Of a stretch of 64,000 nucleotides of DNA, positions 3,171 through 46,285 are shown piece after piece. Under the pieces are notes generated by a model. It was not told the origin of the DNA. It ran no database searches and worked only from the letters and a program-made list of their open reading frames with translations. The stretch's first letter is position 1. Each line of letters starts with the position of its first letter. The DNA is from Candidatus Moraniibacteriota bacterium (GTDB lineage Bacteria > Patescibacteriota > Minisyncoccia > Moranbacterales > GCA-2747515), in contig JALVQA010000006.1 in assembly GCA_027031495.1 (NCBI GenBank), forward strand, positions 16,952-80,951, given 5' to 3'. Made by a program: the position numbers and the translations under genes.

Positions 3171-4733
3171 ATGCAAAAAAAGACTGTTATAAGAAGTGTT
3201 TTAATCATCGTTGTTGTCATTGGTGCGTTTTTACGTTTCTGGCATCTTGGCGCCGTACCTTTTCGTGCTGATGAATTTCTGGATATCAATGCGACAGTTG
3301 GCTACGTGCATACGGGCATGTGGCAAGCATGGGACCATAATATGGGTGATGTAAGTACGCGTGTTAATTCGGCGAGTGACCATCGCGCATGGCTCTATCG
3401 CTGGCAGGTTGCATTTCTCTTTAAATACTTTCCGCCGACAGAGGCGGTTGCGCGCAGCGTAAGCGCGTTGTGGGGTGTGCTGACAATCATTCTTATTTAC
3501 TTTGTAGCGGCGTCACTCACGCAACGACGAGCAATCGGTCTTATCAGTGCTGCACTGTATGCCGTAAGTGTAAGTGCAATTGAGGTTGATCGTACACTGC
3601 GCATGTATGCCATGTTTGCGCCGGTTTTTTTGGCGTTCTCATGGGCAACATTTTTGACACTTGAGCGTACACCAAAAGTTGCATTCCTGAAAAAAATATG
3701 GCGCATTTTTGGTGTGCATATTGGTTATGGTATCGTTGCGCTTGTACTCGGCATGCTTTCTTTGCATTTGCACGCCCTTACAGCAAATATTGTGTTTGTA
3801 ATTGTTGGATATATTGTGTTAATGGGGTTCGTCACATGGCGCGCCGGTGTCACATGGCGTGACAATCGTTACGTGAAACTTCTTGCTCTTGTTTTTGGTA
3901 CACTGGCAGGTCTTTTCATTATACTGCCACAGATGGTAGCATCTTTTACTGCCGGTATCGTGTTATGGGAAAATCACTGGCACTATATTGGGCATGTGCT
4001 TCGCGACTATGCTCATCCACTCATGGGTGTTGCGCTTTATATTATCGGTATATCGTTTTTGTGGTATGGGGGAACATCTGCACAAAGGCGTGGCGCGGCG
4101 TGGATTGATGCGACGACTAGCATTATTTTGTGTGCAGCCATCTTTTTGTGGCGACGCAATGTGGGACCACAGTATATCTTTTTTGTGCAGCCATTTATTA
4201 TGATGGGTGTTGCGAGTGGTATTTACTATGGCGCACGTTACCTACAAAGAAAAATGCATGATCGTCGCGCGTTTATTGTTGCACTCCTGTGTGCGGCGAT
4301 TTTTGTGCCGCATTATGGTTACTTCTTTCGCGAAAACAACACATACCATATCACGTCACATGCAGAAATGCCTAATTACCGCAAAGTTTTTACATATATT
4401 ACAAAACACGCTAAAGATGGCGATGTTTTAATTACACGGAATTTTCGTAATTACTACTGGAGTGGTGCTCACATAAAAACATTTGATTTTGGCTCCGAGC
4501 GAAGCGAAGAGGCGCTTAAAGCTGAAGGGAAGGTTGCAAAAGTTACACGCGCATATCTTGAGAGCATTGTTGAGAAATACCCACACGGATGGTTCGTTTT
4601 TTCTGAAAATGATGAAAAATTTATTACTAAAGAGGTGCGTGCGTATGCCCAAAAGCACTTTGAAAAAGTGTCACACGCAAATGTACGCGGTCCTATAACA
4701 GTATATCGGTGGGACATATCTAATCGTATGTAA
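3171..4733 (+). CDS. GT-C fold glycosyltransferase, ArnT/PMT-like (GT39/GT83 family) membrane protein
   Basis: Polytopic N-terminal half with the first-loop motif FRADEFLD (the DE motif of ArnT/PMT-type GT-C enzymes). Soluble C-terminal domain. 520 aa. Confidence 0.65.
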   Translation: MQKKTVIRSVLIIVVVIGAFLRFWHLGAVPFRADEFLDINATVGYVHTGMWQAWDHNMGDVSTRVNSASDHRAWLYRWQVAFLFKYFPPTEAVARSVSALWGVLTIILIYFVAASLTQRRAIGLISAALYAVSVSAIEVDRTLRMYAMFAPVFLAFSWATFLTLERTPKVAFLKKIWRIFGVHIGYGIVALVLGMLSLHLHALTANIVFVIVGYIVLMGFVTWRAGVTWRDNRYVKLLALVFGTLAGLFIILPQMVASFTAGIVLWENHWHYIGHVLRDYAHPLMGVALYIIGISFLWYGGTSAQRRGAAWIDATTSIILCAAIFLWRRNVGPQYIFFVQPFIMMGVASGIYYGARYLQRKMHDRRAFIVALLCAAIFVPHYGYFFRENNTYHITSHAEMPNYRKVFTYITKHAKDGDVLITRNFRNYYWSGAHIKTFDFGSERSEEALKAEGKVAKVTRAYLESIVEKYPHGWFVFSENDEKFITKEVRAYAQKHFEKVSHANVRGPITVYRWDISNRM

Positions 4734-4734
4734 T

Positions 4735-6531
4735 ATGGAATTATTTGATTTTTTGAAGCAAAAACGCATCTATATTGTTGGTTGCATAATTTTCTGTCTC
4801 GCTCTTTTTGTACGCTTTTTTCATGTGGGAGACTGGCTTCACTATGAATTGGATCAAGCGCGTGATTTTCGCATTATTCATGCCGCAATAGAATACGGTC
4901 CGGGTGATCTTCCATTGCAAGGTCCGAAGGCTGCCGGCAATGTTGTTATCCCCGATGAGAACGGTAACCTAACGGATAAGACAACACTTCGTCTCGGCCC
5001 ACTTTTCTACTATATTGAGTATGTGAGTGCACTGCTCTTTGGCGCAACGCCCCTTGGCGCGGTTATATTGATTGTTATTCTATCAACGCTCACCGTGCCA
5101 CTCTTTTACGTTTTTGCGCGACGCTTTTTTACGCAATCTATAGCACTTGGCTTGAGCGCAATTATGGCAAGTAGTCTCTTTTTTGTAACATACAGTCGCT
5201 TTGGGTGGAATCCAAATCTTATGCCGTTTTTCATGCTTCTTTTTGGCTACAGTCTTTTGCGCGTAACGGATATACATAGCACGTGGCGGGGGTGGTGGCT
5301 TGTGAGTGCGGCCTGTGCACTTGCCTTTGTGGGACATATGCATTTTCTTGCGTTTATAGCAGCGCCACTTATAGGTATTGCATATCTTTTATGGTCATGG
5401 AAACGTCTTGTCGGGCCGCATCGCATAGCGCTGCGCTTTTGGTGTATGGCGTGTGTTCTCTTTGTTTTTTTACAAGCGCCTCTCATTATCAATGACATAA
5501 AAACGCATGGTGAAAACACGAAAGCATTTATTGCCGCTCTTACACAGAAATCAAGTAAGGATACTCACACATTGCCGGAGAAGATTATACGTAACATTGG
5601 CAATCATGCAAAATACTACTGGATTATTGTTACGGGCGATCAACGTGCGGAACTGCCAACAATTAAGGGGCATGACATCAAATGCGATCAAGTATGTCGT
5701 GATGGTCTTGCACGCGGTGGTGTTGCTTTGATAATGATTATTGCCGGCATTGTTGCATGGGCATTGCTCTATCAACGTGAAACGGATACACGGAGGAGAG
5801 ATTTTTTGCGCCTTACGATTTTGTGGGCCGGTATTGTGTTTGCGCTCTATATTCCACTTGCTTACGCAATGGCACCTCGCTTCTTTCTTTTGCACGGGGT
5901 GGTAGCACTTATATTCTTCGGCTTTGTCGTTCAGTTGCGCTTTGAGAGTGCGCATCGTTATAGCCGTGCTATTGGTTATGCAATCATTATTCTTTCTGTT
6001 ATTTCCAACCTTATCTACATTGCGCAAGATTTTGCGCAGCGTGCGCGTGCTGCAACAGATGAACATCTACGCATTCAAACTGACTATATTCTCAAAGAAA
6101 AGACGCGCATGCCATTTGAGCAAATGGTGGCTATTGTTGACTATATTGCGCAACGACATAAAGAGACCGGTATGCCGGTATGGCTACACGGACAACCAGA
6201 GTTTAAGCGTGCTCTATGGGAACGTCTTGATACTGCCGGTGTGCCGCGTTTTAGTGCGCCGGTGGATTTAAAGCATGCTTTTAAGCACGGTCTTTACTTT
6301 GTCGTCATTCGTTCTCAATCGGATCATGATGCATATTTGCGCAAAGTAAAAGAAAATGCAGATATCTTACAGCGACGTACATTCGGTACATTGACGCTTT
6401 ACGAACTTGTACCACACAGTGATGTTGCTATAGCTAAGAAGCCAGAGATTTATGTCAAACAAAGAGATCCTCACTTTAGCTCCAGTGCACAGAAGCGTTA
6501 TCTCTGGCGACAAATTTTTGAGAATAAATAA
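4735..6531 (+). CDS. Second GT-C fold ArnT/PMT-like glycosyltransferase (paralogue of the upstream gene)
   Basis: Starts 2 nt after the previous stop. Same architecture: about 10 TM segments, an early LDQARDF loop and a C-terminal soluble domain. 598 aa. Confidence 0.6.
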   Translation: MELFDFLKQKRIYIVGCIIFCLALFVRFFHVGDWLHYELDQARDFRIIHAAIEYGPGDLPLQGPKAAGNVVIPDENGNLTDKTTLRLGPLFYYIEYVSALLFGATPLGAVILIVILSTLTVPLFYVFARRFFTQSIALGLSAIMASSLFFVTYSRFGWNPNLMPFFMLLFGYSLLRVTDIHSTWRGWWLVSAACALAFVGHMHFLAFIAAPLIGIAYLLWSWKRLVGPHRIALRFWCMACVLFVFLQAPLIINDIKTHGENTKAFIAALTQKSSKDTHTLPEKIIRNIGNHAKYYWIIVTGDQRAELPTIKGHDIKCDQVCRDGLARGGVALIMIIAGIVAWALLYQRETDTRRRDFLRLTILWAGIVFALYIPLAYAMAPRFFLLHGVVALIFFGFVVQLRFESAHRYSRAIGYAIIILSVISNLIYIAQDFAQRARAATDEHLRIQTDYILKEKTRMPFEQMVAIVDYIAQRHKETGMPVWLHGQPEFKRALWERLDTAGVPRFSAPVDLKHAFKHGLYFVVIRSQSDHDAYLRKVKENADILQRRTFGTLTLYELVPHSDVAIAKKPEIYVKQRDPHFSSSAQKRYLWRQIFENK

Positions 6532-6542
6532 GATTCTTAGTG

Positions 6543-7739
6543 CTATCTGTCTTCTCTTGCCACGCGCATCGTATTGAGCGCATTGAGTGCAAGCGCCGCA
6601 AGTGCCGCAAGTGCAAAAAGAATTTGCAGGTTGATTGTAAAGAAATACGTCAATATAATAACGATTATGAAAAAAATACTGCGCCCAATCTGTTCTGCAA
6701 CTTCGCGGAGGACAGAGTACTCATCAACGTAATGCCCGCTGCGTTGCGTAAAATCGTACGTTATAGCTTCAAACGGTGTGTTTACAAAAATGCGTGTGAT
6801 GCGATGGTAGAGGTCGGCGACAAATATGTGAAAAGCGGTAGTAACAAAAAGTTTTGCAATCCAGCCAAGTGCGTAGAAGACACTCCCGATATGAAGAACA
6901 TTCCTGCGCGGTAACTTATCTGTCAAGCGACCTGTAAAAAGTTGAAAGATGATGCTAAGCATGATAACGGCGGAGGAGAGAATACCGATGTCCATATATT
7001 TCCCATGCAAAAGAAGATAAACAACAATCGGCCATATAACAATTTGAATACTCGTTTCTATGCCCTCTGCAATGTATGCGCCGACAAAAGCGCGGTTTTT
7101 TCGTGCGACAAGTTCTTGCCACGTTTTATGTATGGTCCATGTAAAACATTCTTTTATGCGCGGAAGGAGAAAAATAGGGATAGCAGCGGCAACGTGGACA
7201 ATGATGCCGATGATAAAAAGTATCTCAAATGACCATGTGCTTACAATAAATGCTGCGACGAGTGGTGTAATAATATTTGCGAGACTCATGAGCGATTCGC
7301 GCAGACTCGCTTCGCGCGCACGATTATCTGCATCGGAGAGGATGGCAAAGTCCGTAAAGTACGGTACCCAATAAAAGAGGCGAAACGCAATACTTGCAAT
7401 GCATAAAATGGTGAAAAAAAGAAGAGTATTGTGTGTGTGGTCCATAAAGGCACTGATGCCATAGAAAACTGCACCAAGAAATGTGCCGAGAATAAGTGAT
7501 GTGCGCATGCCGATGCGTGTGACAATAAAGCGCATAACAAAAGGCGCAAGTACGCCATAAAGGCCGTAGCTGAAAAGGTAAAATGTTGCAAGAAGAGTGA
7601 TGTTTTCATTCAGCGCCTTATAGAGAAAGATTGGTAAAAAAATACCAAAGAGGCCGGCAGCAAACGAAAGAATCACTCTATGTATAATGAGCGCGCGCAG
7701 TGGTGTTGAAAGTTTATGATCTGTGTAACGGATGTGCAT
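6543..7739 (-). CDS. MFS-type transporter
   Basis: About 12 predicted TM helices over 398 aa with a basic loop between helices 2 and 3 (MRFIVTRIGMR). It is the last gene of the minus-strand operon GT4-rtcB-kinase-wzx-MFS. Confidence 0.6.
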   Translation of the reverse strand: MHIRYTDHKLSTPLRALIIHRVILSFAAGLFGIFLPIFLYKALNENITLLATFYLFSYGLYGVLAPFVMRFIVTRIGMRTSLILGTFLGAVFYGISAFMDHTHNTLLFFTILCIASIAFRLFYWVPYFTDFAILSDADNRAREASLRESLMSLANIITPLVAAFIVSTWSFEILFIIGIIVHVAAAIPIFLLPRIKECFTWTIHKTWQELVARKNRAFVGAYIAEGIETSIQIVIWPIVVYLLLHGKYMDIGILSSAVIMLSIIFQLFTGRLTDKLPRRNVLHIGSVFYALGWIAKLFVTTAFHIFVADLYHRITRIFVNTPFEAITYDFTQRSGHYVDEYSVLREVAEQIGRSIFFIIVIILTYFFTINLQILFALAALAALALNALNTMRVAREDR

Positions 7740-7745
7740 AGTAAT

Positions 7746-9194
7746 CTATGTACGTTGTTTAATGTATGTAATATCGTCCAGTGTAAGCTCTCTTGTGACG
7801 ATGAGGATTGCTGTGTATATGAGCAGTGCTATGAACGCGCTTATAACGAAGAATATGTGCGTATGTGTCAGTAGCCATGCGCTATAAGCGGTGATTGTGC
7901 ACGCAAAGAGAACGCGTATAATTGTTCTGAGAGGGATAGCTGCTCTGAATATTTTGTACGTAAGAAGGAGACTAGCGCTTCCCATAAGAAATGACGTGAG
8001 AGAAAAGATGAGCGCTGTCGCGGTGATGCCGTAGTGCGGCAGAAAAATCATATTTGCACTGATACTTATAACAACAGCACTTGCTGCAATGGATGCCGTG
8101 ATGTATGTGTATCCGGCGCCATTAAAGACAGCAGCGAGAATATAGAAAAATGCTCCAAAGACGGTACCGCCAATCATGAGCGGTACAAGTGCTGCACTCG
8201 AGGCAAACGCCTCACCAAAAAAAAGTGTGACAAGTGGTTGTGCAAAAAACGTTATAAGAATTGCAGATGGCATTATGAGCAGAAAAACAAAGCGTAAGAC
8301 GGCTTTAATGAGAGATGCTGCTTTTACGTTTAGTGTTTTTGTGCGCTCTGATATGGTAGGGAAGAGCATGAATGTAAGTGCAAAAAACAAATAGTAGGGT
8401 ATGAGGGAAATGGTCATTGCCGCACTGTAGATACCTGTTGCCATATCACTCTTAAGAAGTGCTTTGATAAGATAGATGTCTGTGCGTACGTAGAATTCAT
8501 AAAAGAGAGTAAAGAGCATGAAGCCACCAGCATATGAGAGGATTTTTTGTGGTGGATAAGGAAACGAAAAGAGAGAGTGTTTCTTTGTTTTTTTCTCGTG
8601 CAGTGGGTGGATGCTGTCAATAATAAGGGCAATGCCAAAAACACAGAGTGGTGCAATGATCGCGCCACTAAGTGCGCCCTTTACGCCAAAATAGAAAGCG
8701 AGACCGAGAATCCAAGCAACACGGAAGAGGCCGCGTGACATCTTAAGCGCTGCCATGGCACCAAAACGTTTGTAACCGTTGAAAATGAGAACATGAAATG
8801 ATGAAAGTGCAAAAGCGGGAATGATGAGGGCGCTCAAATGAAAAAGTGGTACAAGTGTGTAATCACCAAGCAGATGTGCGATCAGTGGTGCCGCACTGTA
8901 AAAAACGATTGTGAGAGTGGCTATGAGTACAAGTTGTATAATGGCCGCAGTTCGTATAATGGCATGTGCAGTTGTAGCGTCTTGTTTATGTTCACTGAGT
9001 CGCTTTGCCATTGCAGTTGGTATGCTGCGCCCGACAAAAATGATGACCATTGTTGTAAGCCCGATAACAATGCTGTAGCGACCATAATCAGCCGGCCCTA
9101 AAAGGCGCCCAAGGCCGGCGCTTACGATGTAGCCAGAAAGTGTAAAAATAATTTCGGCAAAAATAAGCCAAAGTGTAGATGTAAGAAGTGACAT
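7746..9194 (-). CDS. Wzx-like oligosaccharide flippase (polysaccharide biosynthesis protein, MOP/PST family)
   Basis: 482 aa with about 12-14 TM segments. The N-terminus GYIVSAGLGRLLGPADYGRYSIV is typical of the Wzx/RfbX PST family. A 6-nt gap separates it from the MFS gene. Confidence 0.7.
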   Translation of the reverse strand: MSLLTSTLWLIFAEIIFTLSGYIVSAGLGRLLGPADYGRYSIVIGLTTMVIIFVGRSIPTAMAKRLSEHKQDATTAHAIIRTAAIIQLVLIATLTIVFYSAAPLIAHLLGDYTLVPLFHLSALIIPAFALSSFHVLIFNGYKRFGAMAALKMSRGLFRVAWILGLAFYFGVKGALSGAIIAPLCVFGIALIIDSIHPLHEKKTKKHSLFSFPYPPQKILSYAGGFMLFTLFYEFYVRTDIYLIKALLKSDMATGIYSAAMTISLIPYYLFFALTFMLFPTISERTKTLNVKAASLIKAVLRFVFLLIMPSAILITFFAQPLVTLFFGEAFASSAALVPLMIGGTVFGAFFYILAAVFNGAGYTYITASIAASAVVISISANMIFLPHYGITATALIFSLTSFLMGSASLLLTYKIFRAAIPLRTIIRVLFACTITAYSAWLLTHTHIFFVISAFIALLIYTAILIVTRELTLDDITYIKQRT

Positions 9195-9198
9195 GTCT

Positions 9199-9816
9199 TT
9201 ATGTTAAGTCTCTTTGTTTTATGGTGGTAAGAATGTCATTAAAGACGGTATCCCGATCGTGTGCTGCATCAATAGTATGCATATTCCAGATATCTTTCCG
9301 ATCCCGAAAGAGTTTTGTTTTCGCTTCGAGATACGCGGCTCCCTGTTCCGGCACACGATCACGGCACATAATTTCTTGCACGGGAATCGTAAGGAGGAGA
9401 GAAATGTGTGGTTGCGGAACAATATACTCGAGAATGCTGCGCCTATATTTCCGCGAAAGGTAGCGAATATTGATTACCGTGTCAAAGAAGAAGCGATCGG
9501 AGATGAGTACATCATAACCGTTACGTTTAAGACGTGCAACGAGGTAGTGAAAGCGTATTATGTCAATGATGAGTGCAATTTTACGTAGAACGACTTTGAG
9601 CCATGATGCATGCGTTTGCGAAAGTCCTGTGTCAGCATATGTTTTTTTGTGATTTTTTTCTCTTGGTTTTTGTGGAAGAAGCTTTTGCGCAATAGAAAAC
9701 GTCACGGCATGGAGATAATAGACCTTTTTGCCGTGCGATGTGTAGTATGCGATGAGGCGTTGCACTTGCGTACTTTTGCCGCTTCCATCAACGCCGGAGA
9801 GTGTGATAATGTGCAT
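9199..9816 (-). CDS. Thymidylate-kinase-fold P-loop kinase of unknown substrate
   Basis: P-loop LSGVDGSGKSTQ (the Tmk GxDGxGKST motif), a DRF motif (Tmk DRY) and a lid-like RDRVPEQ. The Tmk REPGG substrate motif is missing, so this is unlikely to be a genuine dTMP kinase. Confidence 0.55.
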   Translation of the reverse strand: MHIITLSGVDGSGKSTQVQRLIAYYTSHGKKVYYLHAVTFSIAQKLLPQKPREKNHKKTYADTGLSQTHASWLKVVLRKIALIIDIIRFHYLVARLKRNGYDVLISDRFFFDTVINIRYLSRKYRRSILEYIVPQPHISLLLTIPVQEIMCRDRVPEQGAAYLEAKTKLFRDRKDIWNMHTIDAAHDRDTVFNDILTTIKQRDLT

Positions 9817-9840
9817 AAATCTTGTAATAACACCCTACTT

Positions 9841-11373
9841 CTAGTACATAATTACAGCGACAGGTTGGAGTTTTACGACCATATGCAAAACATTATTTGC
9901 AGTAATATCCTCCACTGCTTTTTCTACATTTTTGTACTGCGATGCATCTTGTTCAATGACTTTTGATGAGCGCGCATTATAAAGCTTGACGCCATAGCTC
10001 TCCATTTTCTTCAGGAGTTCCTCGCGATTTTTTGGTTTCGCGTGTGTATCCGGATTGCGAGGTTTTCCGGTGCCGTGACTTGATGAGAAAAATGATGTTT
10101 CGTTTTTATCTGTACCAACGCCGAGATATGCAGCTGTTGCCATGGAAGATGGAACAAATGCCGGCTCACCTGTTTGTGAAAAGAGGGGATGGTCTTTCAT
10201 GCGTGAAGGCCCAAAGGCACGTGACGTGCCATTACGGTGCACCCACGTCTGTTCACCATAGTGCTCTTCGCGTTCAATGTCGATGTGTGGCATGTCGTAG
10301 AGGAGGTCGAGTTCTGCATCATGTTGCAAAACGTCTTCAATAGCGGTTGCAATATTGTGTGTAATAACGGCACGATTGGCAACGCCAAAGTTACTTGCAG
10401 CAGCACGCGCTTCCATGTACATCCGACCCTCAAGGGAATCGCCATCATAAGTAAAGAGTGGATCGGTATCAATGGTGCGACTGTGAAGTGCGCGTTGAAT
10501 ACGGCGATTCATGCGGTGAAATATGCGTTTCTTTTGCGAATTAAATGTAAGACGCCCAAGAGCGACCATAAGTGACTGTGAGAGGTGCTCGCGCTTCTTT
10601 GGTGTGTACATGTACATTGTGTACTGTCCAAGTAGACCGCTTCCGGTGTGGATGAGGAAAACATAATCACCAACTTTAAGATTAAACTGTGCCGCGATTT
10701 TTGGATCAAGTAATTCTGTCACTTTCATCATGTCAAGAAAGTGATTACCGGCTGCGCCGAGAATACCGAGACGATATTTTGCAATGTGAAGGAAGAGTTG
10801 CGGGATAACATCAAGAACGCGTCGCCGTGATACACTTTCACCAAAAAAGTTGCCACGCGACATGGAATTTTCAATTTCATTGCGTGTTGCGATATTGAGA
10901 TAATCAATGACTGCTTGTGTACCTTTGGCGCAAATATCAAGAACTGTGCTGTATGGCACTTTTGTTCCGACCAATTTTTTTGTAGGAATGGTTTCTGTCA
11001 GTCGTTGAAAGAGGGTGTCAATTTCTTCTTGCGTAATATTGTTTTCGTTGAGATTTGTACGTACCATGCGCATACCGCAGACGGGATCGGAATCGTTCAC
11101 TTGTGGGAGAATTTTGTCCTTAGAAACAACCGTTGTGCCGGTGGCATTTTTGCGACCAGGTTTTGAGTGTACGTCAATCATTGCTGCCGTATGGTGAAAA
11201 AGGCAGTCATTTGATGCAATGCTTTCAATCTGTGCAAGTGTTGCATCATTTGGCATCATTTCGTCACTACAATGAAAAATGGCGGGAACCGTCATTTTAT
11301 TCGTGCGGAATTCCTTTTTGTGTGGTGTGATATCCTTGATAGCATCACGATAATTTTCTGTAGATGTGCTCAT
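9841..11373 (-). CDS. rtcB: RNA 3'-phosphate/5'-OH ligase, RtcB family
   Basis: RtcB motif set is present: DSDPVCGMRM (DIxCGxR), GILGAAGNHF (GGGNHF), IHTGSGLLG (HSGSRGLG), ANRAVITHNIA and SSHGTGK (AHGAGR, the guanylylated-His region). I start the gene at the internal Met (MSTSTENY, 11373). The longer 11505 start would overlap the upstream GT4 gene by 160 nt. Confidence 0.8.
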   Translation of the reverse strand: MSTSTENYRDAIKDITPHKKEFRTNKMTVPAIFHCSDEMMPNDATLAQIESIASNDCLFHHTAAMIDVHSKPGRKNATGTTVVSKDKILPQVNDSDPVCGMRMVRTNLNENNITQEEIDTLFQRLTETIPTKKLVGTKVPYSTVLDICAKGTQAVIDYLNIATRNEIENSMSRGNFFGESVSRRRVLDVIPQLFLHIAKYRLGILGAAGNHFLDMMKVTELLDPKIAAQFNLKVGDYVFLIHTGSGLLGQYTMYMYTPKKREHLSQSLMVALGRLTFNSQKKRIFHRMNRRIQRALHSRTIDTDPLFTYDGDSLEGRMYMEARAAASNFGVANRAVITHNIATAIEDVLQHDAELDLLYDMPHIDIEREEHYGEQTWVHRNGTSRAFGPSRMKDHPLFSQTGEPAFVPSSMATAAYLGVGTDKNETSFFSSSHGTGKPRNPDTHAKPKNREELLKKMESYGVKLYNARSSKVIEQDASQYKNVEKAVEDITANNVLHMVVKLQPVAVIMY

Positions 11374-12490
11374 AATGTTTAGCTGTTTTAGTAATATCAA
11401 AATGTCTCTCAGCGAAGGCGCGCGCGGCATGTCCGAGTCGTGCACGCTGCGCTTCATGAGAGAGGATGTGCGCAATCGCATCAGTGAGGCGCGCAGTATT
11501 TTCACTCTCTATGATAACAGAGATATCAGTGTTCGTGAATTCACGAAGACGCGGAATATCAGAGACGATTGTCGGCTTTCCACACGCATATCCCTCAATG
11601 AGCGCGAGAGGAACATCAAATTTTCCGTGCATGTTTGCGACGGGAAAGATGATGATATCGGCGAGATTATAGAGGCCGCGCATATCTGCAAATGTATCTG
11701 TGTAGCGCACATGATCAGCAAAGCCACGACGAGCAAGCACTTTTTTAACGTGAGCTTTTTTGCGTGCGTCCGCTTCATTTTTGACGCGTAAACCAAGAAC
11801 AAGTAACGTATTGTGTGCTGCTGGATGATTGCTGCGCCAAAAAGCGGTGAGTGCATCAATAATCATATCTGTCGCGCCGAGTCGTGTATACTCGCCGGGA
11901 TAAAGAATGACAAAAGCATCTTTTGGTATCGCAAAATGTTTTAAAAGTGCCGGGTCCTTATCGTCCGGTGTGTAGTGCGCAAGATCAATGCCGGGATAAG
12001 CATATGAAACATTTGTGAAACCCTTGCGTTGGAGTAGTTGTTGAGCGAAGCGTGTATATGTCACAAGATGGTCGGCAAAGAGGATATTGCGAATATCCTT
12101 TGCAGAAAGAACGCTGTCGCGCAACGTGGCGATCGTCTGAATAGTACGTGTTTTTTTTGTGCGGAGAAATGTACGAATGATAAAAGCATTAAGTTTTGTC
12201 GGTGTGAAAAAGTAATGCGCAATGTCAAAGTCGTGGCGCACTTTCCATTGATAAAAGAGAGATTCCCACTTTTGGCGTGTACTAAATATGCTTGGTGGTG
12301 CTGGCGAGTATATGTGTGCTTGTGTGACGTGTGACGGCATATCGTCAAGGGTGCCGGATGTCATAACAGTCACGTCAACCGCATGTACATGTTTTGCAAG
12401 ATTATAAGCAAAATTCTTACTTGCCTCATCCCAGGGTGGTGTGAGGGCACGTGACACGTAGAGAACTTTCTTTTTTTGCCGTGTATTCAT
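11345..12490 (-). CDS. Glycosyltransferase family 4 (GT-B)
   Basis: 381 aa. The C-terminal GT4 region includes GxPxxEAmxxGxP-like elements (EGYACGKPTIVSDIPRLREF). It is the first gene of the minus-strand operon. Confidence 0.75.
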   Translation of the reverse strand: MNTRQKKKVLYVSRALTPPWDEASKNFAYNLAKHVHAVDVTVMTSGTLDDMPSHVTQAHIYSPAPPSIFSTRQKWESLFYQWKVRHDFDIAHYFFTPTKLNAFIIRTFLRTKKTRTIQTIATLRDSVLSAKDIRNILFADHLVTYTRFAQQLLQRKGFTNVSYAYPGIDLAHYTPDDKDPALLKHFAIPKDAFVILYPGEYTRLGATDMIIDALTAFWRSNHPAAHNTLLVLGLRVKNEADARKKAHVKKVLARRGFADHVRYTDTFADMRGLYNLADIIIFPVANMHGKFDVPLALIEGYACGKPTIVSDIPRLREFTNTDISVIIESENTARLTDAIAHILSHEAQRARLGHAARAFAERHFDITKTAKHYEHIYRKLS

Positions 12491-12525: not shown

Positions 12526-12876
12526 CTATTTTTTGAGAACGACTTTTTCATCATTGTGGTAGACAGTCACTGTGGCGCTACCGAAGGAGTGAGGATGTAT
12601 GATCGTTGCTGTCGTGTGCGGCATGACAATAACATTTGTACGCGGCACAAGCACGGTATCACCATTTGTAATCGTGTATGCAAATGTCTTTGACGGTGTT
12701 TCATTTGTAATCGCAAAATCGTACGAAGAGTATGCTGAAGCGTCTTTATGTGGGTTTATAAACGATGCACTCCAGTAGTATGTGTGCGTAAAGGTATGCT
12801 CCAGTGTATATGTGAGAAAAATTGCTGCACAAAGAAAAAGGAATGCGATTGCGATAGTAATGCTCCTGTAAGACAT
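12526..12876 (-). CDS. Small membrane-anchored hypothetical protein
   Basis: N-terminal TM (ITIAIAFLFLCAAIFL) followed by a Thr/His-rich beta-like domain. 116 aa. It sits 10 nt downstream of the large membrane protein gene. Confidence 0.4.
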   Translation of the reverse strand: MSYRSITIAIAFLFLCAAIFLTYTLEHTFTHTYYWSASFINPHKDASAYSSYDFAITNETPSKTFAYTITNGDTVLVPRTNVIVMPHTTATIIHPHSFGSATVTVYHNDEKVVLKK

Positions 12877-12885
12877 AGACGTGTA

Positions 12886-14934
12886 TTAGTGACGGTAAAA
12901 TACTGTAACGTGTTTGCTTGAATAGATACGATAGAATTGGTCTGATGTCATAAACTGCGCTGCGTCGTGTTGTGGTGAGACAATAATGTAGCGTACAGAT
13001 AGATCGTTAAAGCAGTGCTGTGCATGTGTACTTAGTGGTGCGCTAATCATGTCGCGTGTGCATGTTTCGCGTGTCCCGGATTCGTAACGCTTAAAATAAC
13101 TGCGTGAAAGAGGATAGCTGTAATCACGGAGAAAGAAGAGTTTCATCCATGTATCAGCCGTGAGATAGTTATGATCTTTAAGTGTCCACTCGTCTTTTGC
13201 AGTATGACTTGCAACGTAGCGTGCAGCGGCAAATGATTCGCGCGCTTGTGCGAGTGATGGTGTGGTTTTGAGGGATTGACTGTTGTCGTACATACCCGTT
13301 GTGATCGCAAAAAGAATAATGGTGATACCTGTTGTAATTGCAAAAAACGGTGCAAGATATGTTCGTGCTGTTGCAATAAGCCACGCAAGGCCAATGCCGC
13401 CAATGAGAGCAAAGGGTATGATCGTGTAATTTGCAATGCGACTGGAGATGATGTTAATGCCAAGATACTGGGGAATTGTACTCATTGCAAACGTCGCTAG
13501 TGGCCATGCGATAATAATAGCAACGGCGTAAGCATTCTTTGGAGAAACTTTGTGCCAGATCTTCTCATAAAGTATTTGCGTGATGCATACACGCATTTTG
13601 TGTCGGAGTGGAAAATGGTGTGTAACGATATAGAGTGTAAGAATAATGCTGCCAATAACAGCAAAGGTAAAACGTGCTTCACCAATTGTATGCATGAGTT
13701 GTACGAGCGTAACGCCCGTGCGTGTTTCTTTACTTGGCGCGCCGGTGGCTGATGAGATTGCGTCTGGATTGAGATAGTGTGGTGTGTATACAAAGAGAAG
13801 CAGGATTATTGTGGATATGAGCGAAAAAAGTGAGAGGGGATGAAGAAGGAGATTAATCCACTCTCTGAAGAAGTGCGTTACTGTACGAATGTTAAGAAGT
13901 ATAAAAAGAAAAACAACAAAAGCGATGCTGTAGAGAAATATAAAAGTACTCAAGTGGTGTGTGTAGATGAGACCTGTAACGATGATGAAAAAGGCACTCA
14001 AAAGACACGCTGATTTTTCTGTTAATGCACGGTAAAGAAAAAAGAATGCAAGAGGAATAAAAAGGTTGCCAAAGAGATTGCCGATAACGCCACCGGCGAC
14101 AAATTTTGCTTGTGATGCGGAAATGGTGTAGAGAGGACCCATAAGAAAAAGCACGGAAATACCAATAGTATCTGCAATGTGTGTGTGGGCAAAAAGCCTT
14201 ACGGCGAACATAAAAAGCGCAAGAACACTGAAAAGATCAAGAAGGAAGAGGAAAAGAATGGGTTGTGAAGAAAGAACGTTCTTGCCCGTGACGATGCTAA
14301 TAGCTGCAAGAGGAATATGTTCACCGATAATAAAGTCAGCGATATTCTCTGGTGCACTGATAGCGTACGTTCCGTCATCTTTTGTAATGATTTTTTGTTT
14401 TTCGTAGACATGAAGATGGTGTGTCGTGGCAATTTTGTTTACCCAATAGAGGTGATGACCCATATCGGTAGCTGTGGGAAAGAGTGTGTCGGCAAGATAA
14501 AAAGTTTTGATTGTAATAGTAAGTGCGATAAGTATAAGTGCGATATAGGTTTTTTGATGTGAGCGTATTGCGCGTCGCGTTATGTTTTTTGTGGCTAATC
14601 TGTTTGTTATGTGACTTGTAATGTGTTGTATTTTCTTTATGTTACATATGGAGAAATTTGTGAGTATTTTTGCGGCAATAAGTGGCACAAGAACAACAAA
14701 TGGCACAAGGAGAATTAGTGTGCGTGTGATGGCAAGGTGAAAAACTTTATCAGCGACAATGAGAGTAATATCAAGCAACACGACGCCGATGCCAAAGCCG
14801 GCAACGGCGTACTCAAGCAATGAAAATGTTTTTTTTCCTTTAAGAATGGAAAGGAATGCTATGCCGGGTATAAAAAACAACCAAAGAAGCGTGAGAAAAA
14901 AAACAAATTGATCAAAGATAATGTGCATAATCAT
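12886..14934 (-). CDS. Large polytopic membrane protein (682 aa), candidate GT-C-like glycosyltransferase or glycan polymerase
   Basis: At least 14 hydrophobic segments and a soluble C-terminal region of about 150 aa. I recognise no family. It lies inside the glycosyltransferase locus. Confidence 0.45.
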   Translation of the reverse strand: MIMHIIFDQFVFFLTLLWLFFIPGIAFLSILKGKKTFSLLEYAVAGFGIGVVLLDITLIVADKVFHLAITRTLILLVPFVVLVPLIAAKILTNFSICNIKKIQHITSHITNRLATKNITRRAIRSHQKTYIALILIALTITIKTFYLADTLFPTATDMGHHLYWVNKIATTHHLHVYEKQKIITKDDGTYAISAPENIADFIIGEHIPLAAISIVTGKNVLSSQPILFLFLLDLFSVLALFMFAVRLFAHTHIADTIGISVLFLMGPLYTISASQAKFVAGGVIGNLFGNLFIPLAFFFLYRALTEKSACLLSAFFIIVTGLIYTHHLSTFIFLYSIAFVVFLFILLNIRTVTHFFREWINLLLHPLSLFSLISTIILLLFVYTPHYLNPDAISSATGAPSKETRTGVTLVQLMHTIGEARFTFAVIGSIILTLYIVTHHFPLRHKMRVCITQILYEKIWHKVSPKNAYAVAIIIAWPLATFAMSTIPQYLGINIISSRIANYTIIPFALIGGIGLAWLIATARTYLAPFFAITTGITIILFAITTGMYDNSQSLKTTPSLAQARESFAAARYVASHTAKDEWTLKDHNYLTADTWMKLFFLRDYSYPLSRSYFKRYESGTRETCTRDMISAPLSTHAQHCFNDLSVRYIIVSPQHDAAQFMTSDQFYRIYSSKHVTVFYRH

Positions 14935-14972: not shown

Positions 14973-16055
14973 CTAGCGCGCTTTTGTCTTTTCTATGACG
15001 TCAATGTAACGCTGAGCAATAACATCCCACGTAAAAGTGCGCTTGATGTATTCATGTGCTTTTCTGCCAAAGGCCTTACGATCAAATGTATCGGCGAGAA
15101 GTTCTGTAAGTTTTTCCCTCCATGCCGTCGGATTGCCATGTTCTACAAGAAAGCCATTTTTACCATCATGAATAGCATCTTTAAGACCTTCCAATCGTGA
15201 GGCGACAACGGGAATACCACTGCTGCCCGCTTCCAGGACAACAAGACCAAAACCTTCCATGTCACCCTTGACGGGTATGTTCGGCTGAATAAAGAGATCG
15301 CATGTGTGGAGAAGAACATCGCGGTCTTCGTTGGAGATGTATCCGAGTAATATTACACGTTCTTGCATCTTTGCTTTTTCGATAGCATTTTTGATGTTAT
15401 CAAAGTCCGGTCCGGCGCCGGAAACAACATAGATAACATTTTGTGGCAATGTTGGCAAGACATTTTCTATAAACCATGCAACACCCTTGCGGCGCACGAG
15501 GCGACCGCCAGTGAAGAGTACGTGTGTGTCATCTTCAAGTTTTCCCTTAATGAGCTTTTCCAGGCGTGTACGTGGCATATCTTTTGGTACAAACTTTTTC
15601 GTGTCAACGCCATTCGGCACAAAAACAAATTGTTCTTTCTTGATGCCGCGTGCAACTCCCTCTTTGATGGTCTGATTGCCGACAGCAATAAGCACGTCAG
15701 CTTCGGGAATAAAACGTTTGACCCAAATATTCTGGTAAAACTCGTTTTCAAATGTAAGATCAAGTCCGTGTACAATACACGCCACTTTCTTTCTTTTGCC
15801 GTAGAAAAGTTTTACAAATGAAATAACGATACCCAAAACCCCATCACCGAGCAAAAGCACGTCATATTTGCGCATGTAAAAGAGTGCCGTAATGAGTGCC
15901 CATGGCAAAAAGAGGGGAAGGAGCCTCTTGCCATCGGTATTTGCAATAACTTTTACATCTGCGATACGTGAGAGCGCTCGTGAAATCTCATAATTCTGAT
16001 TTTCAATGCCACCAACAACCGGTGGGTACGCGCGCGAAATAAAGAGAATTTTCAT
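14973..16055 (-). CDS. Glycosyltransferase family 4
   Basis: MKILFISRAYPPVVGGIENQ at the N-terminus and EGFGLVVLEAGSSGIPVVAS at the C-terminus. The M23 start sits 4 nt from the upstream GT2 stop, whereas the longer start would overlap it. Confidence 0.8.
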   Translation of the reverse strand: MKILFISRAYPPVVGGIENQNYEISRALSRIADVKVIANTDGKRLLPLFLPWALITALFYMRKYDVLLLGDGVLGIVISFVKLFYGKRKKVACIVHGLDLTFENEFYQNIWVKRFIPEADVLIAVGNQTIKEGVARGIKKEQFVFVPNGVDTKKFVPKDMPRTRLEKLIKGKLEDDTHVLFTGGRLVRRKGVAWFIENVLPTLPQNVIYVVSGAGPDFDNIKNAIEKAKMQERVILLGYISNEDRDVLLHTCDLFIQPNIPVKGDMEGFGLVVLEAGSSGIPVVASRLEGLKDAIHDGKNGFLVEHGNPTAWREKLTELLADTFDRKAFGRKAHEYIKRTFTWDVIAQRYIDVIEKTKAR

Positions 16056-16059
16056 AGAT

Positions 16060-16989
16060 TTACTTTTTAGAATTGCTTTCTTTAAGTTCTCTGCGACGAA
16101 GACGATAAAGAATTTCTTCATTGAGAAGGCGACTGCCTCTAATCATGTCTGCAATGAGGCCGAACGTGAGAAACTGTATACCGACAAGGAAGAAAGCAAG
16201 CGTTGTAAGTGGATAAGCACCCTTGAGAGCGATAAAAGCGGTGCCGGATGCGAGTATGAATAATATGCCGGGTATGGCAAAGAATTTCATCGGCTGAATG
16301 TCGCGAAAAGCACGAATAATAACACGCGCACTGTTTGTGACGTATGTCATGATGCTTTTGACAACGCGTGATTTGCGTGCGTCATGATAGGTAACAACGA
16401 CAGGTATCCATACAAGGCGAAGGTTTTTACCAATAGCATCAATGATCGTTTCTTGCGTATAGGTGAAACCGCTCGGGTCTGCAAGACGTAGCAACGCTTC
16501 GCGATTATGCGCACGGAAGCCACAGGTAAGATCAACAACTTTTACGCCTGTTGCTTTTGCCACGAGCCACGCACCAAGGCGATTGAGCTTGTCTTTGAGA
16601 AACGGGATATTCTTGGCGGTGCTGCGCGAGAAACGGTCGGCAATAACAATGTCGGCCTTGTGTGCGAGAATTGGTTTGATGAGCGTTGCAATATCTTTCG
16701 GATCAAACTGTCCATCGGCATCAATATTGACAAGAATGTCGGCACCGTTTTCCAGTGCGCTCTGACGCATTGTGCGAAACATGACACCGAGACCACGGTT
16801 TCCATCATGAGAGATAATAATGTCCGCGCCACCTTTACGTGCTTCTTCTACGGTGCGATCTGTGGATCCATCGTCAATAACTTGTACAAGCACTTCATCA
16901 ACACCATCGATTGTGCGGGGAATGCGTCGAATTGTCTGTGCAATATGTTTTTCTTCATTGTAGCCGGGAAGATTAACAATCAATTTCAT
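16060..16989 (-). CDS. GT2 polyprenol-phosphate glycosyltransferase (DPM1/GtrB-like) with two C-terminal TM helices
   Basis: VIDDGSTD, DADGQFDP (DxD) and a C-terminal membrane anchor. 309 aa. Confidence 0.8.
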   Translation of the reverse strand: MKLIVNLPGYNEEKHIAQTIRRIPRTIDGVDEVLVQVIDDGSTDRTVEEARKGGADIIISHDGNRGLGVMFRTMRQSALENGADILVNIDADGQFDPKDIATLIKPILAHKADIVIADRFSRSTAKNIPFLKDKLNRLGAWLVAKATGVKVVDLTCGFRAHNREALLRLADPSGFTYTQETIIDAIGKNLRLVWIPVVVTYHDARKSRVVKSIMTYVTNSARVIIRAFRDIQPMKFFAIPGILFILASGTAFIALKGAYPLTTLAFFLVGIQFLTFGLIADMIRGSRLLNEEILYRLRRRELKESNSKK

Positions 16990-17100: not shown

Positions 17101-18402
17101 TTAGCGTCCGATACCGCGATAGACGACACCCAATGCTTCAATTGCATCTTTATCCATACAATTTTTGCCGTCCAAAACAACTTTTATGTTATTTTTCTTG
17201 AGTAATGAAAGGTCCATATTAACAAACTCGTCGTGGTTTGTTGCAATGAAAATATGATCAACACGTGCAAGAATATCTTCAAGGGATTGACTGTCACATT
17301 TATGAAGGACGTGTGGATCAAAACTGATCACATCAGCACCATGTTTACGTAGATGTTTAATAATCTTGAATGATGGTGATTCACGTGTATCATCAACATT
17401 AGCCTTATATGCCAAGCCAAGAATACCAATTTTTTCACCTTTAAGTGGCAGTTTGATGCTGTTAAGTGCGTCTTGCATGCGTTCTACCGCATAGATTGGC
17501 ATAAAGTTATTGATACGTCGTGCGTTTCGCATAAATTCGTGTTCAAAACCGCTTCTTTGAGCACTTTCTATCAGATAGTATGGATCAACGGGAATGCAGT
17601 GACCACCGACGCCGCAACTCGGATAATGTGCCATGAAAGCATACGGCTTTGTTTTTGCGCCCTCAATTACATCAAGAACATCAATGCCAAGACGATCGAA
17701 ACTTTGTGCGATTTCGTTGATAAAAGCGATATTAATATCGCGGAAAGAGTTTTCCAAAATTTTAACTGCTTCTGCCTCACGAATTGATTTCATTTCACGT
17801 ACCTCTGCATCAATGATGGAGCGATAGAAGGCGGCGGCACGTTTTGTGCCCTCCTTTGTAAATGCACCGACAACGCGTGCGGTATTGCCAATATGATAGC
17901 CGGCAGAAAAAGATGATTTGCCGGGATCAATACGTTCCGGACAGTGTGCAATAAAGACATCTTTGCCAATAATGTGACCCTCACGTTCAAAGAGAGGGCG
18001 CACAATTTCTTCACATGTGCCGGGATTAACCGTTGATTCAAGAACAACAAGGGTGCCTTTTTTCATTGTGCGGGCAACCATTTCTGATGCGGAGATAACA
18101 TAGTCATATACGGGATTTTGGTCCTCATCTACCGGCGTTGGCACAGCAACAAGGATAATATCGCCTTGAGTGATATCATCTTTGTCATATGTTGCTTTAA
18201 AACGAAACTGTGCAAACTTTTTTGCAACCTTTTCATCATCGCCAAGAGGGCAGACGCCACCGTTAATCATATCGACCCACTCTTTGTTGATGTCAAAGCC
18301 AATGACATTATACCCGCTTTCTTTGGCAAGGAGTGCGAGAGGAAGGCCGACATAGCCAAGCCCGACAACAACAACGGTTTCTTTTTTTGATGTTTTCGAC
18401 AT
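17101..18402 (-). CDS. Nucleotide-sugar dehydrogenase (UDP-glucose/UDP-ManNAc 6-dehydrogenase family)
   Basis: N-terminal Rossmann motif VVVVGLGYVGLPLA and a catalytic Cys in HCPERIDPG. The alternative start 18441 (MMPY..) sits directly behind a TATAAT, which could indicate a leaderless mRNA. I prefer MSKTSKK. Confidence 0.8.
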   Translation of the reverse strand: MSKTSKKETVVVVGLGYVGLPLALLAKESGYNVIGFDINKEWVDMINGGVCPLGDDEKVAKKFAQFRFKATYDKDDITQGDIILVAVPTPVDEDQNPVYDYVISASEMVARTMKKGTLVVLESTVNPGTCEEIVRPLFEREGHIIGKDVFIAHCPERIDPGKSSFSAGYHIGNTARVVGAFTKEGTKRAAAFYRSIIDAEVREMKSIREAEAVKILENSFRDINIAFINEIAQSFDRLGIDVLDVIEGAKTKPYAFMAHYPSCGVGGHCIPVDPYYLIESAQRSGFEHEFMRNARRINNFMPIYAVERMQDALNSIKLPLKGEKIGILGLAYKANVDDTRESPSFKIIKHLRKHGADVISFDPHVLHKCDSQSLEDILARVDHIFIATNHDEFVNMDLSLLKKNNIKVVLDGKNCMDKDAIEALGVVYRGIGR

Positions 18403-18494
18403 AAAGGTAATATTATAGTACTTTTTAGCGTACGGCATCATACATGCGTATTATACACAATATGTACAATAAAGGAAGGTGTATATATGAGTAT

Positions 18495-26852: not shown

Positions 26853-26888
26853 AAACATTCTCCATGCGGAGAATGTTTTTCTTTTTGC
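26853..26888. terminator. Bidirectional rho-independent terminator between the convergent genes
   Basis: 11-bp perfect stem AAACATTCTCC / GGAGAATGTTT flanked by an A-run upstream and a T-run downstream. Confidence 0.7.
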
Positions 26889-45548: not shown

Positions 45549-45552
45549 AAAT

Positions 45553-46278: not shown

Positions 46279-46285
46279 AATATTT

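What the first reader, a model, noticed from the sequence alone, without database searches (positions are those of the whole stretch)
9199..11373. RtcB RNA ligase and a Tmk-fold kinase inside a glycosyltransferase/flippase operon
The minus-strand genes GT4, rtcB, P-loop kinase, wzx and MFS are separated by -28, 24, 4 and 6 nt, so they are almost certainly co-transcribed. RtcB normally sits with rtcA/rtcR, archease, Rsr/Y-RNA or PrfH. Finding it between a GT4 and a Wzx flippase next to a thymidylate-kinase-fold kinase is unusual. The kinase has the P-loop and DRY-like motif but not the dTMP-binding REPGG.

Possible meanings:
- an RNA-repair module co-regulated with envelope remodelling
- a kinase plus ligase pair acting on a non-RNA phosphorylated substrate
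- a nucleotide or polynucleotide kinase feeding RtcB
Basis: partly seen in the sequence, partly recalled or inferred. Interest (0 to 1): 0.6.

Follow-up and report, generated by a model that had tools for sequence, protein, structure and literature searches.

The report
RtcB-like ligase built into glycan operons
A relative of the RNA-joining enzyme RtcB has lost the residues that hold RNA, yet in many unrelated bacteria it sits inside cell-envelope sugar-assembly gene clusters, which suggests an undescribed, probably non-RNA, job for this enzyme family.

Summary
On the minus strand lie GT4 (11345-12490), a 510-aa RtcB-family protein (9841-11373), a 205-aa thymidylate-kinase-fold P-loop protein (9199-9816), Wzx (7746-9194) and MFS (6543-7739). 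They are separated by a 29-nt overlap and gaps of 24, 4 and 6 nt.

The arrangement is not an accident. About 160 loci from Candidatus Moraniibacteriota (CPR) keep the order GT2-GT4-membrane protein-small protein-GT4-RtcB-kinase-Wzx at 35-58% protein identity. GT4 directly precedes RtcB in 113 of 117 evaluable loci.

The RtcB has the full RtcB fold, the metal ligands and the GMP-histidine. It lacks Arg238, His242, Arg190 and Gln194, which hold the 5'-OH RNA strand in canonical RtcB. It also lacks Asn330, Lys351 and Arg412, which are invariant in canonical RtcB.

Seven more distant RtcB-like proteins were checked in loci of 33-73% GC. Six lack Arg238 (P0311 keeps it) and all lack His242. All lie in glycan or glycolipid clusters. 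Six directly abut a flippase-type gene, all seven have GT4 genes in the locus, and five of the seven loci also carry a P-loop kinase-like gene. A canonical Patescibacteria RtcB does not.

Best reading: a GTP-dependent enzyme of envelope glycoconjugate synthesis that acts on a phosphorylated non-RNA intermediate. This is inferred, not shown. No description was found in the literature searched.

The parts
9841..11373 (-). RtcB-like protein, 510 aa. It has the RtcB fold and an intact catalytic core, but the nucleic-acid-binding site is remodelled.
   Evidence: PF01139 E=1.9e-67. The AF2 model has pLDDT 92.9 and TM 0.81-0.86 to P. horikoshii RtcB 4dwq. Cys98, His203, His234, His329, His404 and Asn202 (Pho numbering) are kept. 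Arg238->Gly, His242->Gln, Arg408->Lys and Arg412->Pro.
9199..9816 (-). Thymidylate-kinase-fold P-loop kinase-like protein, 205 aa, of a family essentially confined to Moraniibacteriota.
7746..9194 (-). Wzx-type flippase (Polysacc_synt), the constant downstream partner of the kinase.
   Evidence: PF01943/PF13440. It lies directly after the kinase in 69 of 74 species loci, often with a 4-8 nt overlap.
6543..7739 (-). MFS transporter, the last gene of the run. It is conserved here only in the closest relatives.
   Evidence: PF07690. It is present after Wzx only in L001, L002, L006 and L061.
11345..12490 (-). GT4 glycosyltransferase ('GT4a'), the constant upstream partner of the RtcB-like gene. 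It overlaps that gene by 29 nt.
   Evidence: PF13692/PF00534. It lies directly upstream of RtcB in 56/57 and 57/60 loci. GT4a-like orthologues also occur in the distant clusters L166 and L167 (E=1e-31 and 1e-54).
12526..12876 (-). Small 116-aa protein with an N-terminal membrane anchor, a conserved member of the block.
   Evidence: ORF. Cluster c6 is present in 45 of the first 85 loci, between the large membrane protein and GT4a.
12886..14934 (-). Polytopic membrane protein of 682 aa with no Pfam match, a conserved member of the block.
   Evidence: Orthologues at 30-44% identity hold the same position in most loci.
14973..16121 (-). GT4 glycosyltransferase ('GT4b'). The true start is probably the ATG at 16055.
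   Evidence: PF00534 E=6.9e-33 and PF13439. Its position is conserved.
16060..16989 (-). GT2 glycosyltransferase with a C-terminal membrane segment, the first conserved gene of the block.
   Evidence: PF00535. Its position is conserved at 47-59% identity.
17101..18441 (-). UDP-glucose/GDP-mannose dehydrogenase-family enzyme lying upstream of the block.
   Evidence: PF03721/PF00984/PF03720. A homologue (cluster c12) lies upstream of GT2 in several species.

Best explanation
The 510-aa protein is a catalytically competent RtcB-fold enzyme that works in envelope glycoconjugate assembly rather than in RNA repair.

Shown:
- It keeps the two-metal site, the histidine that carries GMP and the guanine pocket.
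- It has lost the residues that clamp the 5'-OH RNA strand.
- Its gene is fixed between a GT4 glycosyltransferase and a kinase-Wzx pair across Moraniibacteriota.
- More distant RtcB-like clades, all without His242 and six of seven without Arg238, sit in glycan or glycolipid clusters in unrelated lineages. Six of seven lie directly beside a flippase-type gene, all seven have GT4 genes in the locus, and five of seven loci carry a P-loop kinase-like gene.

Inferred mechanism:
- The enzyme self-guanylylates with GTP.
- It then transfers GMP to a phosphomonoester on a sugar or lipid-linked intermediate, which the neighbouring P-loop kinase may have made. This gives X-pp-G.
- Either a hydroxyl of a second sugar or lipid attacks to form a phosphodiester and release GMP, which is the RtcB chemistry applied to a glycopolymer.
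- Or the GDP-activated product is released as a donor for the adjacent GT4.
- The finished lipid-linked unit is then flipped by Wzx.
For: 1. The synteny GT2-GT4b-p682-p116-GT4a-RtcB-kinase-Wzx holds in about 160 loci at 35-58% identity, while the flanks vary. GT4a directly precedes RtcB in 113/117 loci. Start-stop overlaps of 4 nt are frequent.

2. RtcB is among the best conserved genes of the block, mostly 45-58% identical (34-39% in the N202S sister clade) against 33-47% for GT4a, 35-47% for the kinase and 34-53% for Wzx.

3. The catalytic Cys98, His203, His234, His329 and His404 are invariant. Arg238->Gly and His242->Gln occur in 97% of 61 orthologues. In canonical RtcB these positions, with Arg190, Gln194, Asn330, Lys351 and Arg412, are 91-100% conserved. 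Arg238 binds the first two phosphodiesters of the 5'-OH strand, and the E. coli R189A mutant seals 200-fold more slowly (PMC8051266).

4. Seven distant clade members were looked up. All lack His242 and six lack Arg238 (P0311 keeps it).
- P0159, P0165, P0308 and P0305 lie directly after an LPG_synthase_TM/flippase-like gene, overlapping it by 8-11 nt in two cases. GT4, GT2, B12-radical SAM and other genes lie around them.
- P0327 and P0330 lie directly before Wzx, with a 4-nt overlap or gap.
- P0330 is also flanked by Bac_transf, GT4 and a ScmC-type P-loop protein.
- P0311 lies downstream of two GT4 genes, an APH kinase and an HprK-related P-loop protein.
- Locus GC ranges from 33 to 73%.

5. 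A Tmk-like kinase homologous to the window's (E=5e-11) occurs in the P0159 cluster.

6. As a control, a canonical-signature RtcB from a Patescibacteria MAG has no glycan neighbours.

7. The window carries no RtcA, archease, PrfH, tRNA or Rfam RNA.
Against: - No biochemical datum exists. Every characterised RtcB acts on nucleic acid ends.
- The subfamily-specific insertion (residues about 253-305, two helices) is rich in Lys and Arg and could supply an alternative RNA-binding surface.
- Within Moraniibacteriota the synteny is one inherited arrangement, not many independent events.
- Only seven distant contexts and one canonical control could be examined.
- CPR genomes often pack unrelated genes into one transcription unit.
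- RtcB and the kinase are separated by opposite-strand genes in about 12 species, so a strict kinase-to-RtcB channel is not required.
- The kinase's fold is that of NMP kinases, whose acceptor is a nucleotide phosphate, not a sugar hydroxyl.
Confidence: 0.55

Rival explanations
1. It is still an RNA 3'-phosphate/5'-OH ligase with a different way of holding RNA. It would serve housekeeping or stress repair (tRNA, rRNA or intron ligation). Its gene merely shares a transcription unit with envelope genes, perhaps so that RNA repair is co-regulated with envelope remodelling.
For: The RtcB fold and catalytic core are complete. A basic two-helix insertion could bind RNA. Housekeeping genes such as folD and glyA flank the block in some species, which shows mixed neighbourhoods.
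Against: Four residues that contact the 5'-OH strand, and three further canonical invariants, are replaced (PMC8051266). Adjacency to flippase or GT genes recurs in clades only 29-37% identical and in genomes of 33-73% GC. Passive hitch-hiking does not predict that. A canonical RtcB exists in Patescibacteria in an unrelated context.
Confidence: 0.25
2. The kinase and RtcB form an RNA (or DNA) end-healing and sealing pair, with the kinase acting as a polynucleotide or nucleotide kinase that feeds RtcB.
For: The two genes are adjacent with gaps of at most 20 nt in 15 of 33 directly adjacent pairs. A homologous kinase also occurs in the distant P0159 cluster.
Confidence: 0.05
3. The RtcB-like enzyme guanylylates or ligates something else that carries a phosphate. 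Candidates are a nucleotide-sugar or a nucleotide 3'-phosphate made by the kinase (by analogy with dephospho-CoA kinase), or a protein. The product would regulate or decorate the glycan pathway rather than build its backbone.
Against: There is no specific evidence for this. It is compatible with the same genomic data as the main explanation and differs only in the substrate.
Confidence: 0.1
4. The placement is a chance insertion of rtcB into a polysaccharide locus and has no functional meaning.
For: None beyond the general mosaic nature of such loci.
Against: The position is conserved in about 160 loci, and comparable contexts recur independently in distant clades.
Confidence: 0.03

Closest known systems
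Canonical RtcB RNA ligase (E. coli RtcB, Pyrococcus horikoshii RtcB, human RTCB)
   Same: It has the same fold (TM 0.8) and the same Pfam family. It shares the metal ligands Cys98, His203, His234 and His329, the GMP-histidine His404, Asn202, and the guanine-pocket residues Phe204, Tyr451, Lys480 and the Ser-Met loop.
   Different: Arg238, His242, Arg190 and Gln194 (the 5'-OH strand contacts) are replaced, as are Asn330, Lys351 and Arg412. Gly69 becomes an invariant Lys. It has a 30-residue basic insertion. It scores 102 bits against a cut-off of 407 on the NCBIfam RtcB equivalog. Its neighbours are GT4, a kinase and Wzx rather than RtcA/RtcR, archease, PrfH or Rsr/Y RNA.
Galactose-1-phosphate uridylyltransferase, and the sugar 1-kinase plus nucleotidyltransferase pairs such as AmgK/MurU (mechanistic analogy, from established knowledge)
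   Same: These use a covalent histidine-NMP enzyme intermediate, or a kinase followed by an NMP transfer, to convert a sugar phosphate into an NDP-sugar. This matches one branch of the proposed mechanism. An APH-family kinase lies in one distant cluster.
   Different: The folds are unrelated. No activity of any RtcB on a sugar phosphate has been reported in the literature searched.
Phosphodiester-forming steps of wall glycopolymer synthesis (TagF-type CDP-glycerol transferases and the CDP-alcohol phosphatidyltransferase logic)
   Same: The net reaction of the proposed ligase branch is phosphomonoester plus alcohol giving a phosphodiester, through a nucleotide-activated pyrophosphate intermediate. 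The window also encodes an LCP-family ligase, Wzy_C proteins and MurJ in the same 25-kb island.
   Different: Those systems use separate cytidylyltransferases and transferases of other folds. Here a single RtcB-fold enzyme with GTP would do both steps. This is wholly inferred.
Thymidylate kinase (Tmk)
   Different: Identity is 13-22%. The Pfam match covers only the P-loop. TIGR00041 scores 24 against a cut-off of 83. The dTMP-binding segment is replaced by a family-specific HAxxFSxAN...T.ASW...R..D..RF region with a disordered loop at residues 47-71. The gene is always paired with Wzx.

Membership tests
RtcB family (Pfam PF01139) | A profile match above the curated cut-off over the full domain | tested here: met
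   228.8 bits against a cut-off of 27, covering profile positions 1-424 of 426.
RtcB family (Pfam PF01139) | The RtcB three-dimensional fold | tested here: met
   The AF2 model has pLDDT 92.9. Foldseek gives E=4e-36 and TM 0.81/0.86 to 4dwq.
RtcB family (Pfam PF01139) | The two-manganese site (Asp95, Cys98, His203, His234, His329) and the guanylylated His404 | tested here: met
   All are present in the window protein. Cys and the four His are invariant in 61 orthologues, and Asp95 is kept in 74%.
Canonical RNA-ligating RtcB (E. coli / P. horikoshii type) | The residues that bind the 5'-OH strand: Arg238, His242, Arg190, Gln194 | tested here: not met
   These are Gly, Gln, Ile and Arg in the window. 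In canonical representatives they are 91-100% conserved. Their roles are taken from PMC8051266.
Canonical RNA-ligating RtcB (E. coli / P. horikoshii type) | The other canonical invariants: Asn330, Lys351, Arg408, Arg412 | tested here: not met
   These are Ile, Asn, Lys and Pro in the window.
Canonical RNA-ligating RtcB (E. coli / P. horikoshii type) | A score above the NCBIfam equivalog cut-offs (NF007153, TIGR03073) | tested here: not met
   102 against 407 bits and 69 against 272 bits.
Canonical RNA-ligating RtcB (E. coli / P. horikoshii type) | GTP/Mn-dependent joining of RNA 3'-phosphate to 5'-OH | not testable with these tools
   This needs an enzyme assay.
Known RtcB gene contexts (rtcBA-rtcR, archease, PrfH-RtcB2, Rsr/Y RNA) | A partner gene or RNA next to rtcB | tested here: not met
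   None was found among the ORFs scanned in the window. There were no Rfam or tRNA hits. There is no such conserved neighbour in 160 loci.
Thymidylate kinase (dTMP kinase) | The Tmk fold with P-loop and DR[YF] motif | tested here: met
Thymidylate kinase (dTMP kinase) | A full-length profile match or equivalog score, and the dTMP-binding segment | tested here: not met
   PF02223 matches residues 8-36 only. TIGR00041 scores 24.2 against 83.25. HMMER alignments to Tmk structures skip residues 63-119.
Polynucleotide kinases (Clp1, T4 Pnk/PNKP type) | Closest structural or sequence similarity to these kinases | tested here: not met
Wzx-dependent lipid-linked glycan assembly cluster | A Wzx flippase plus glycosyltransferases, with polymerase/ligase-type and attachment enzymes nearby | tested here: met
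   Wzx, two GT4 and one GT2. Further GT4, Wzy_C, LCP, two PMT_2 and MurJ lie within 0-25 kb.
Wzx-dependent lipid-linked glycan assembly cluster | An initiating phosphoglycosyltransferase (Bac_transf or MraY/WecA type) in the cluster | tested here: not met
   None was found among the window ORFs scanned. One is present next to the RtcB-like gene in the distant locus L177.
Anti-phage defence systems (PADLOC) | A match of the RtcB, kinase or GT genes to a defence-system model | tested here: not met
   The only hit is a 21-bit P-loop match for the kinase.

The most novel reading that the evidence does not exclude
A subfamily of RtcB-fold enzymes has been recruited from nucleic-acid repair to glycoconjugate biosynthesis. 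It would use GTP and a histidine-GMP intermediate to activate a sugar- or lipid-borne phosphomonoester supplied by a dedicated P-loop kinase. It would then either form a phosphodiester bond in an envelope glycopolymer or glycolipid, or make a GDP-activated donor. This would be a route to such bonds unlike any known glycan-assembly enzyme. It appears to be present in CPR bacteria, Omnitrophica and several other lineages.
Probability: 0.45. Interest if true: 0.9.

Novelty: new variant of a known kind. Interest (0 to 1): 0.78.

Why it matters
RtcB is known only as a nucleic-acid end-joining enzyme. Here the RNA-binding residues are gone, the chemistry-bearing core is kept, and the gene recurs inside glycan clusters. 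This gives a concrete, testable candidate for a new reaction class in cell-envelope biosynthesis.

It would also assign functions to three conserved genes of Candidate Phyla Radiation bacteria (RtcB-like, Tmk-like kinase and GT4a). The envelopes of these bacteria are almost uncharacterised.

Finally, it warns that automatic 'tRNA-splicing ligase RtcB' annotations are probably wrong for this subfamily.

Tried and rejected
- An exact look-up of the window RtcB in the assembly index found nothing, so the kinase was used instead.
- The metagenome scan was seeded with the sister clade (A2) in the hope of reaching new lineages. It returned mostly Moraniibacteriota orthologues again. This was useful for counts but is not independent evidence.
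- The AFDB50 fold library was unavailable, so the kinase could not be compared with annotated predicted structures.
- Literature searches found nothing relevant. The terms tried were RtcB with CPR, Patescibacteria, or glycosyltransferase/flippase, then 'RtcB-like' and ScmC.
- The Burroughs and Aravind RNA-repair survey is not held.
- A search for Arg341/Arg345 mutational data found nothing, so the role of Arg408 and Arg412 rests only on their conservation.
- Cluster-member look-up gave no organism names for the distant clades. Lineage independence therefore rests on GC content, a few record titles and sequence divergence.
- PADLOC gave no defence-system link.
- The idea that the kinase is the cell's ordinary Tmk was considered and set aside. 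The match is P-loop only and the gene is invariably coupled to Wzx. A canonical tmk elsewhere in the genome could not be checked.
- The idea that the RtcB-like protein is a dead enzyme was rejected because all catalytic residues are invariant.
Full report
**Observation.** The minus strand of the window carries, without a strand change, the following genes:
- GT2 (16060-16989)
- GT4 (14973-16121)
- a 682-aa polytopic membrane protein (12886-14934)
- a 116-aa protein (12526-12876)
- a second GT4 (11345-12490)
- a 510-aa RtcB-family protein (9841-11373)
- a 205-aa P-loop protein (9199-9816)
- a Wzx-type flippase (7746-9194)
- an MFS transporter (6543-7739)

The junctions around the finding are a 29-nt overlap and then gaps of 24, 4 and 6 nt. 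Pfam confirms every assignment. RtcB scores 228.8 bits over the whole profile. The kinase passes PF02223 only marginally and only over its P-loop. NCBIfam places both far below the equivalog cut-offs for RtcB and dTMP kinase. Promoter-like sites are at the chance level, and no terminator-like site lies in a junction.

**Setting.** The first 25 kb of the window form an envelope-glycan island. It holds MurJ, two PMT_2 GT-C proteins, the block above, a UDP-sugar dehydrogenase, further GT4 and GT2 genes, a Wzy_C protein and an LCP-family ligase. The remaining 39 kb are housekeeping genes. Among the ORFs scanned there is no RtcA, archease or PrfH, and no tRNA or Rfam RNA. The nearest named relatives of both proteins are Candidatus Moraniibacteriota of the Candidate Phyla Radiation.

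**Conservation of the arrangement.**
- A scan of one genome per species with the kinase family returned 80 loci. A metagenome scan with RtcB relatives returned 80 more.
- tBLASTn of the window proteins on these loci, and an independent ORF clustering, show the order GT2-GT4b-p682-p116-GT4a-RtcB-kinase-Wzx in most of them at 35-58% identity. The genes beyond Wzx differ from species to species.
- GT4a directly precedes RtcB in 56/57 and 57/60 evaluable loci.
- Wzx directly follows the kinase in 69/74.
- RtcB lies within 400 nt upstream of the kinase in 40/71 loci and within 5 kb in 23 more.
- Where the RtcB-kinase pair is split, the inserted genes are usually a Wzy_C gene on the other strand, or a NUDIX gene.
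- Four-nucleotide start-stop overlaps are common at GT4a/RtcB and kinase/Wzx.

The firm pairs are therefore GT4a-RtcB and kinase-Wzx.

**The RtcB-like protein.** An AlphaFold model (pLDDT 92.9) superposes on P. horikoshii and human RtcB with TM about 0.8.
- *Retained:* Alignment to the P. horikoshii enzyme shows Cys98, His203, His234, His329, the GMP-carrying His404, Asn202 and the guanine-pocket residues. The cysteine and the histidines are invariant in 61 orthologues.
- *Lost:* Arg238 is Gly and His242 is Gln in 97% of orthologues. Arg408 is Lys and Arg412 is not conserved.
- *Why this matters:* The crystal structure of RtcB with a 5'-OH oligonucleotide shows that Arg238 clamps the first two phosphodiesters, His242 packs on the first base, and Arg190 and Gln194 bind the next phosphate. 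The equivalent E. coli R189A mutant seals 200-fold more slowly (PMC8051266).
- *Family-wide view:* A search of 1.84 billion representatives followed by alignment shows a single canonical clade in which Asp95, Arg190, Gln194, Arg238, His242, Asn330, Lys351 and Arg412 are 91-100% conserved. Around it is an assemblage of divergent clades that keep only the catalytic core. The window protein belongs to the latter.
- *Subfamily-specific features:* These are an invariant Lys in place of canonical Gly69, and a basic two-helix insertion.

**Independent contexts.** All seven more distant clade members that could be looked up lie in glycan or glycolipid clusters. All seven lack His242, and six lack Arg238 (P0311 keeps it).
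- P0159, P0165, P0308 (an Omnitrophica MAG) and P0305 (a marine MAG) lie directly after an LPG_synthase_TM/flippase-like gene. In two cases they overlap it. Around them are GT4, GT2, B12-radical SAM, methyltransferase, deacetylase, FkbH and CDP-alcohol transferase genes.
- P0327 overlaps a Wzx gene by 4 nt.
- P0330 sits between a Bac_transf priming transferase and Wzx-GT4-ScmC.
- P0311 follows two GT4 genes, an APH kinase and an HprK-related P-loop protein.

These loci span 33-73% GC. The P0159 cluster contains a homologue of the window's kinase. Four others contain mutually related HprK/ScmC-type P-loop proteins. GT4a-like and GT4b-like enzymes recur. By contrast, a Patescibacteria RtcB with the canonical signature has no such neighbours.

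**Interpretation.**
- *Shown:* The RtcB core is intact, the nucleic-acid 5'-strand site is missing, the position inside a glycan operon is fixed across a whole CPR lineage, and distant clades recur next to flippase-type genes and near GT4 genes, usually with a P-loop kinase-like gene in the cluster.
- *Inferred:* The enzyme acts on a phosphorylated sugar or lipid-linked intermediate. It would transfer GMP to the phosphate and then either let a hydroxyl form a phosphodiester or release a GDP-activated donor for GT4a.

I give this family of mechanisms 0.55. I give 0.25 to an RNA ligase with an altered RNA-binding mode that is merely co-transcribed, and small weights to an RNA heal-and-seal pair, another phosphorylated acceptor, and chance.

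**Limits.**
- There is no biochemistry.
- Only seven distant contexts and one control were examined.
- Whole genomes could not be searched for a second RtcB or a true tmk.
- The Moraniibacteriota synteny is one inherited arrangement.

**Novelty.** No description of RtcB-family proteins in glycan clusters was found. On present evidence I class this as a new variant of a known kind. There is a substantial chance that it represents new enzymology.

Noticed in passing
L006, L007, L010, L011, L018, L029, L041 and many others: Many public MAG records carrying this Moraniibacteriota-type cluster are titled 'uncultured Bdellovibrionales', 'Pseudobdellovibrionaceae', 'Micavibrio' or 'Saccharibacteria'. 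The synteny and 40-60% identity to Moraniibacteriota proteins suggest these taxonomic labels are unreliable.
   Followed up: no
L009, L022, L038, L045, L049, L054, L072, L079, L080 (between RtcB and kinase); L045, L057, L060: In about a dozen species a Wzy_C (O-antigen-ligase-like) gene on the opposite strand is inserted between the RtcB-like gene and the kinase. In four species the inserted gene is a same-strand NUDIX hydrolase gene.
   Followed up: partly
L016, L070, L077, L153, L156, L162; proteins P0158, P0160, P0161, P0164, P0167: A sister clade of the RtcB-like protein keeps the same synteny. It has Asn202->Ser, Glu206->Ser/Thr, no Tyr451 and a shorter C-terminal region. This suggests further change, or relaxation, of the active site.
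   Followed up: partly
L041:~3700-5600: A 398-aa ORF of the kinase family is followed by GT4a and then a second 202-aa kinase, with no RtcB-like gene. This may be a kinase duplication or fusion.
   Followed up: no
L167:9581-11672 (also L168): The distant RtcB-like cluster contains an FkbH-domain protein (TIGR01686, 292 bits) followed by a 74-aa ORF that could be a carrier protein. Both lie beside a B12-radical SAM enzyme and a polysaccharide deacetylase.
   Followed up: no
window 37126-39000: This is a TrwB/VirD4-like type IV coupling ATPase with a treble-clef zinc finger. It is preceded by a 426-aa protein with no Pfam match (35837-37117).
   Followed up: no
window 26888-27748 and 29502-31028; 31025-32419: Two rhodanese-domain proteins flank the fmt-def pair. 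The second is followed by a protein that has only a PEP-utilising mobile domain.
   Followed up: no
window 45427-47164: Two tandem sugar-nucleotidyltransferase (NTP_transferase) genes lie far from the glycan island. The first overlaps a 187-aa ORF (44985-45548) that has no family match.
   Followed up: no
window 1-64000: Cumulative GC skew rises monotonically over the whole window (G exceeds C on the plus strand throughout), although the coding strand switches near 18.5 kb.
   Followed up: no
window 11373-11505: The RtcB ORF can be extended upstream to a GTG at 11505 (554 aa), inside GT4a. Orthologue N-termini and the public gene call (P0036, 510 aa) support the ATG at 11373.
   Followed up: yes
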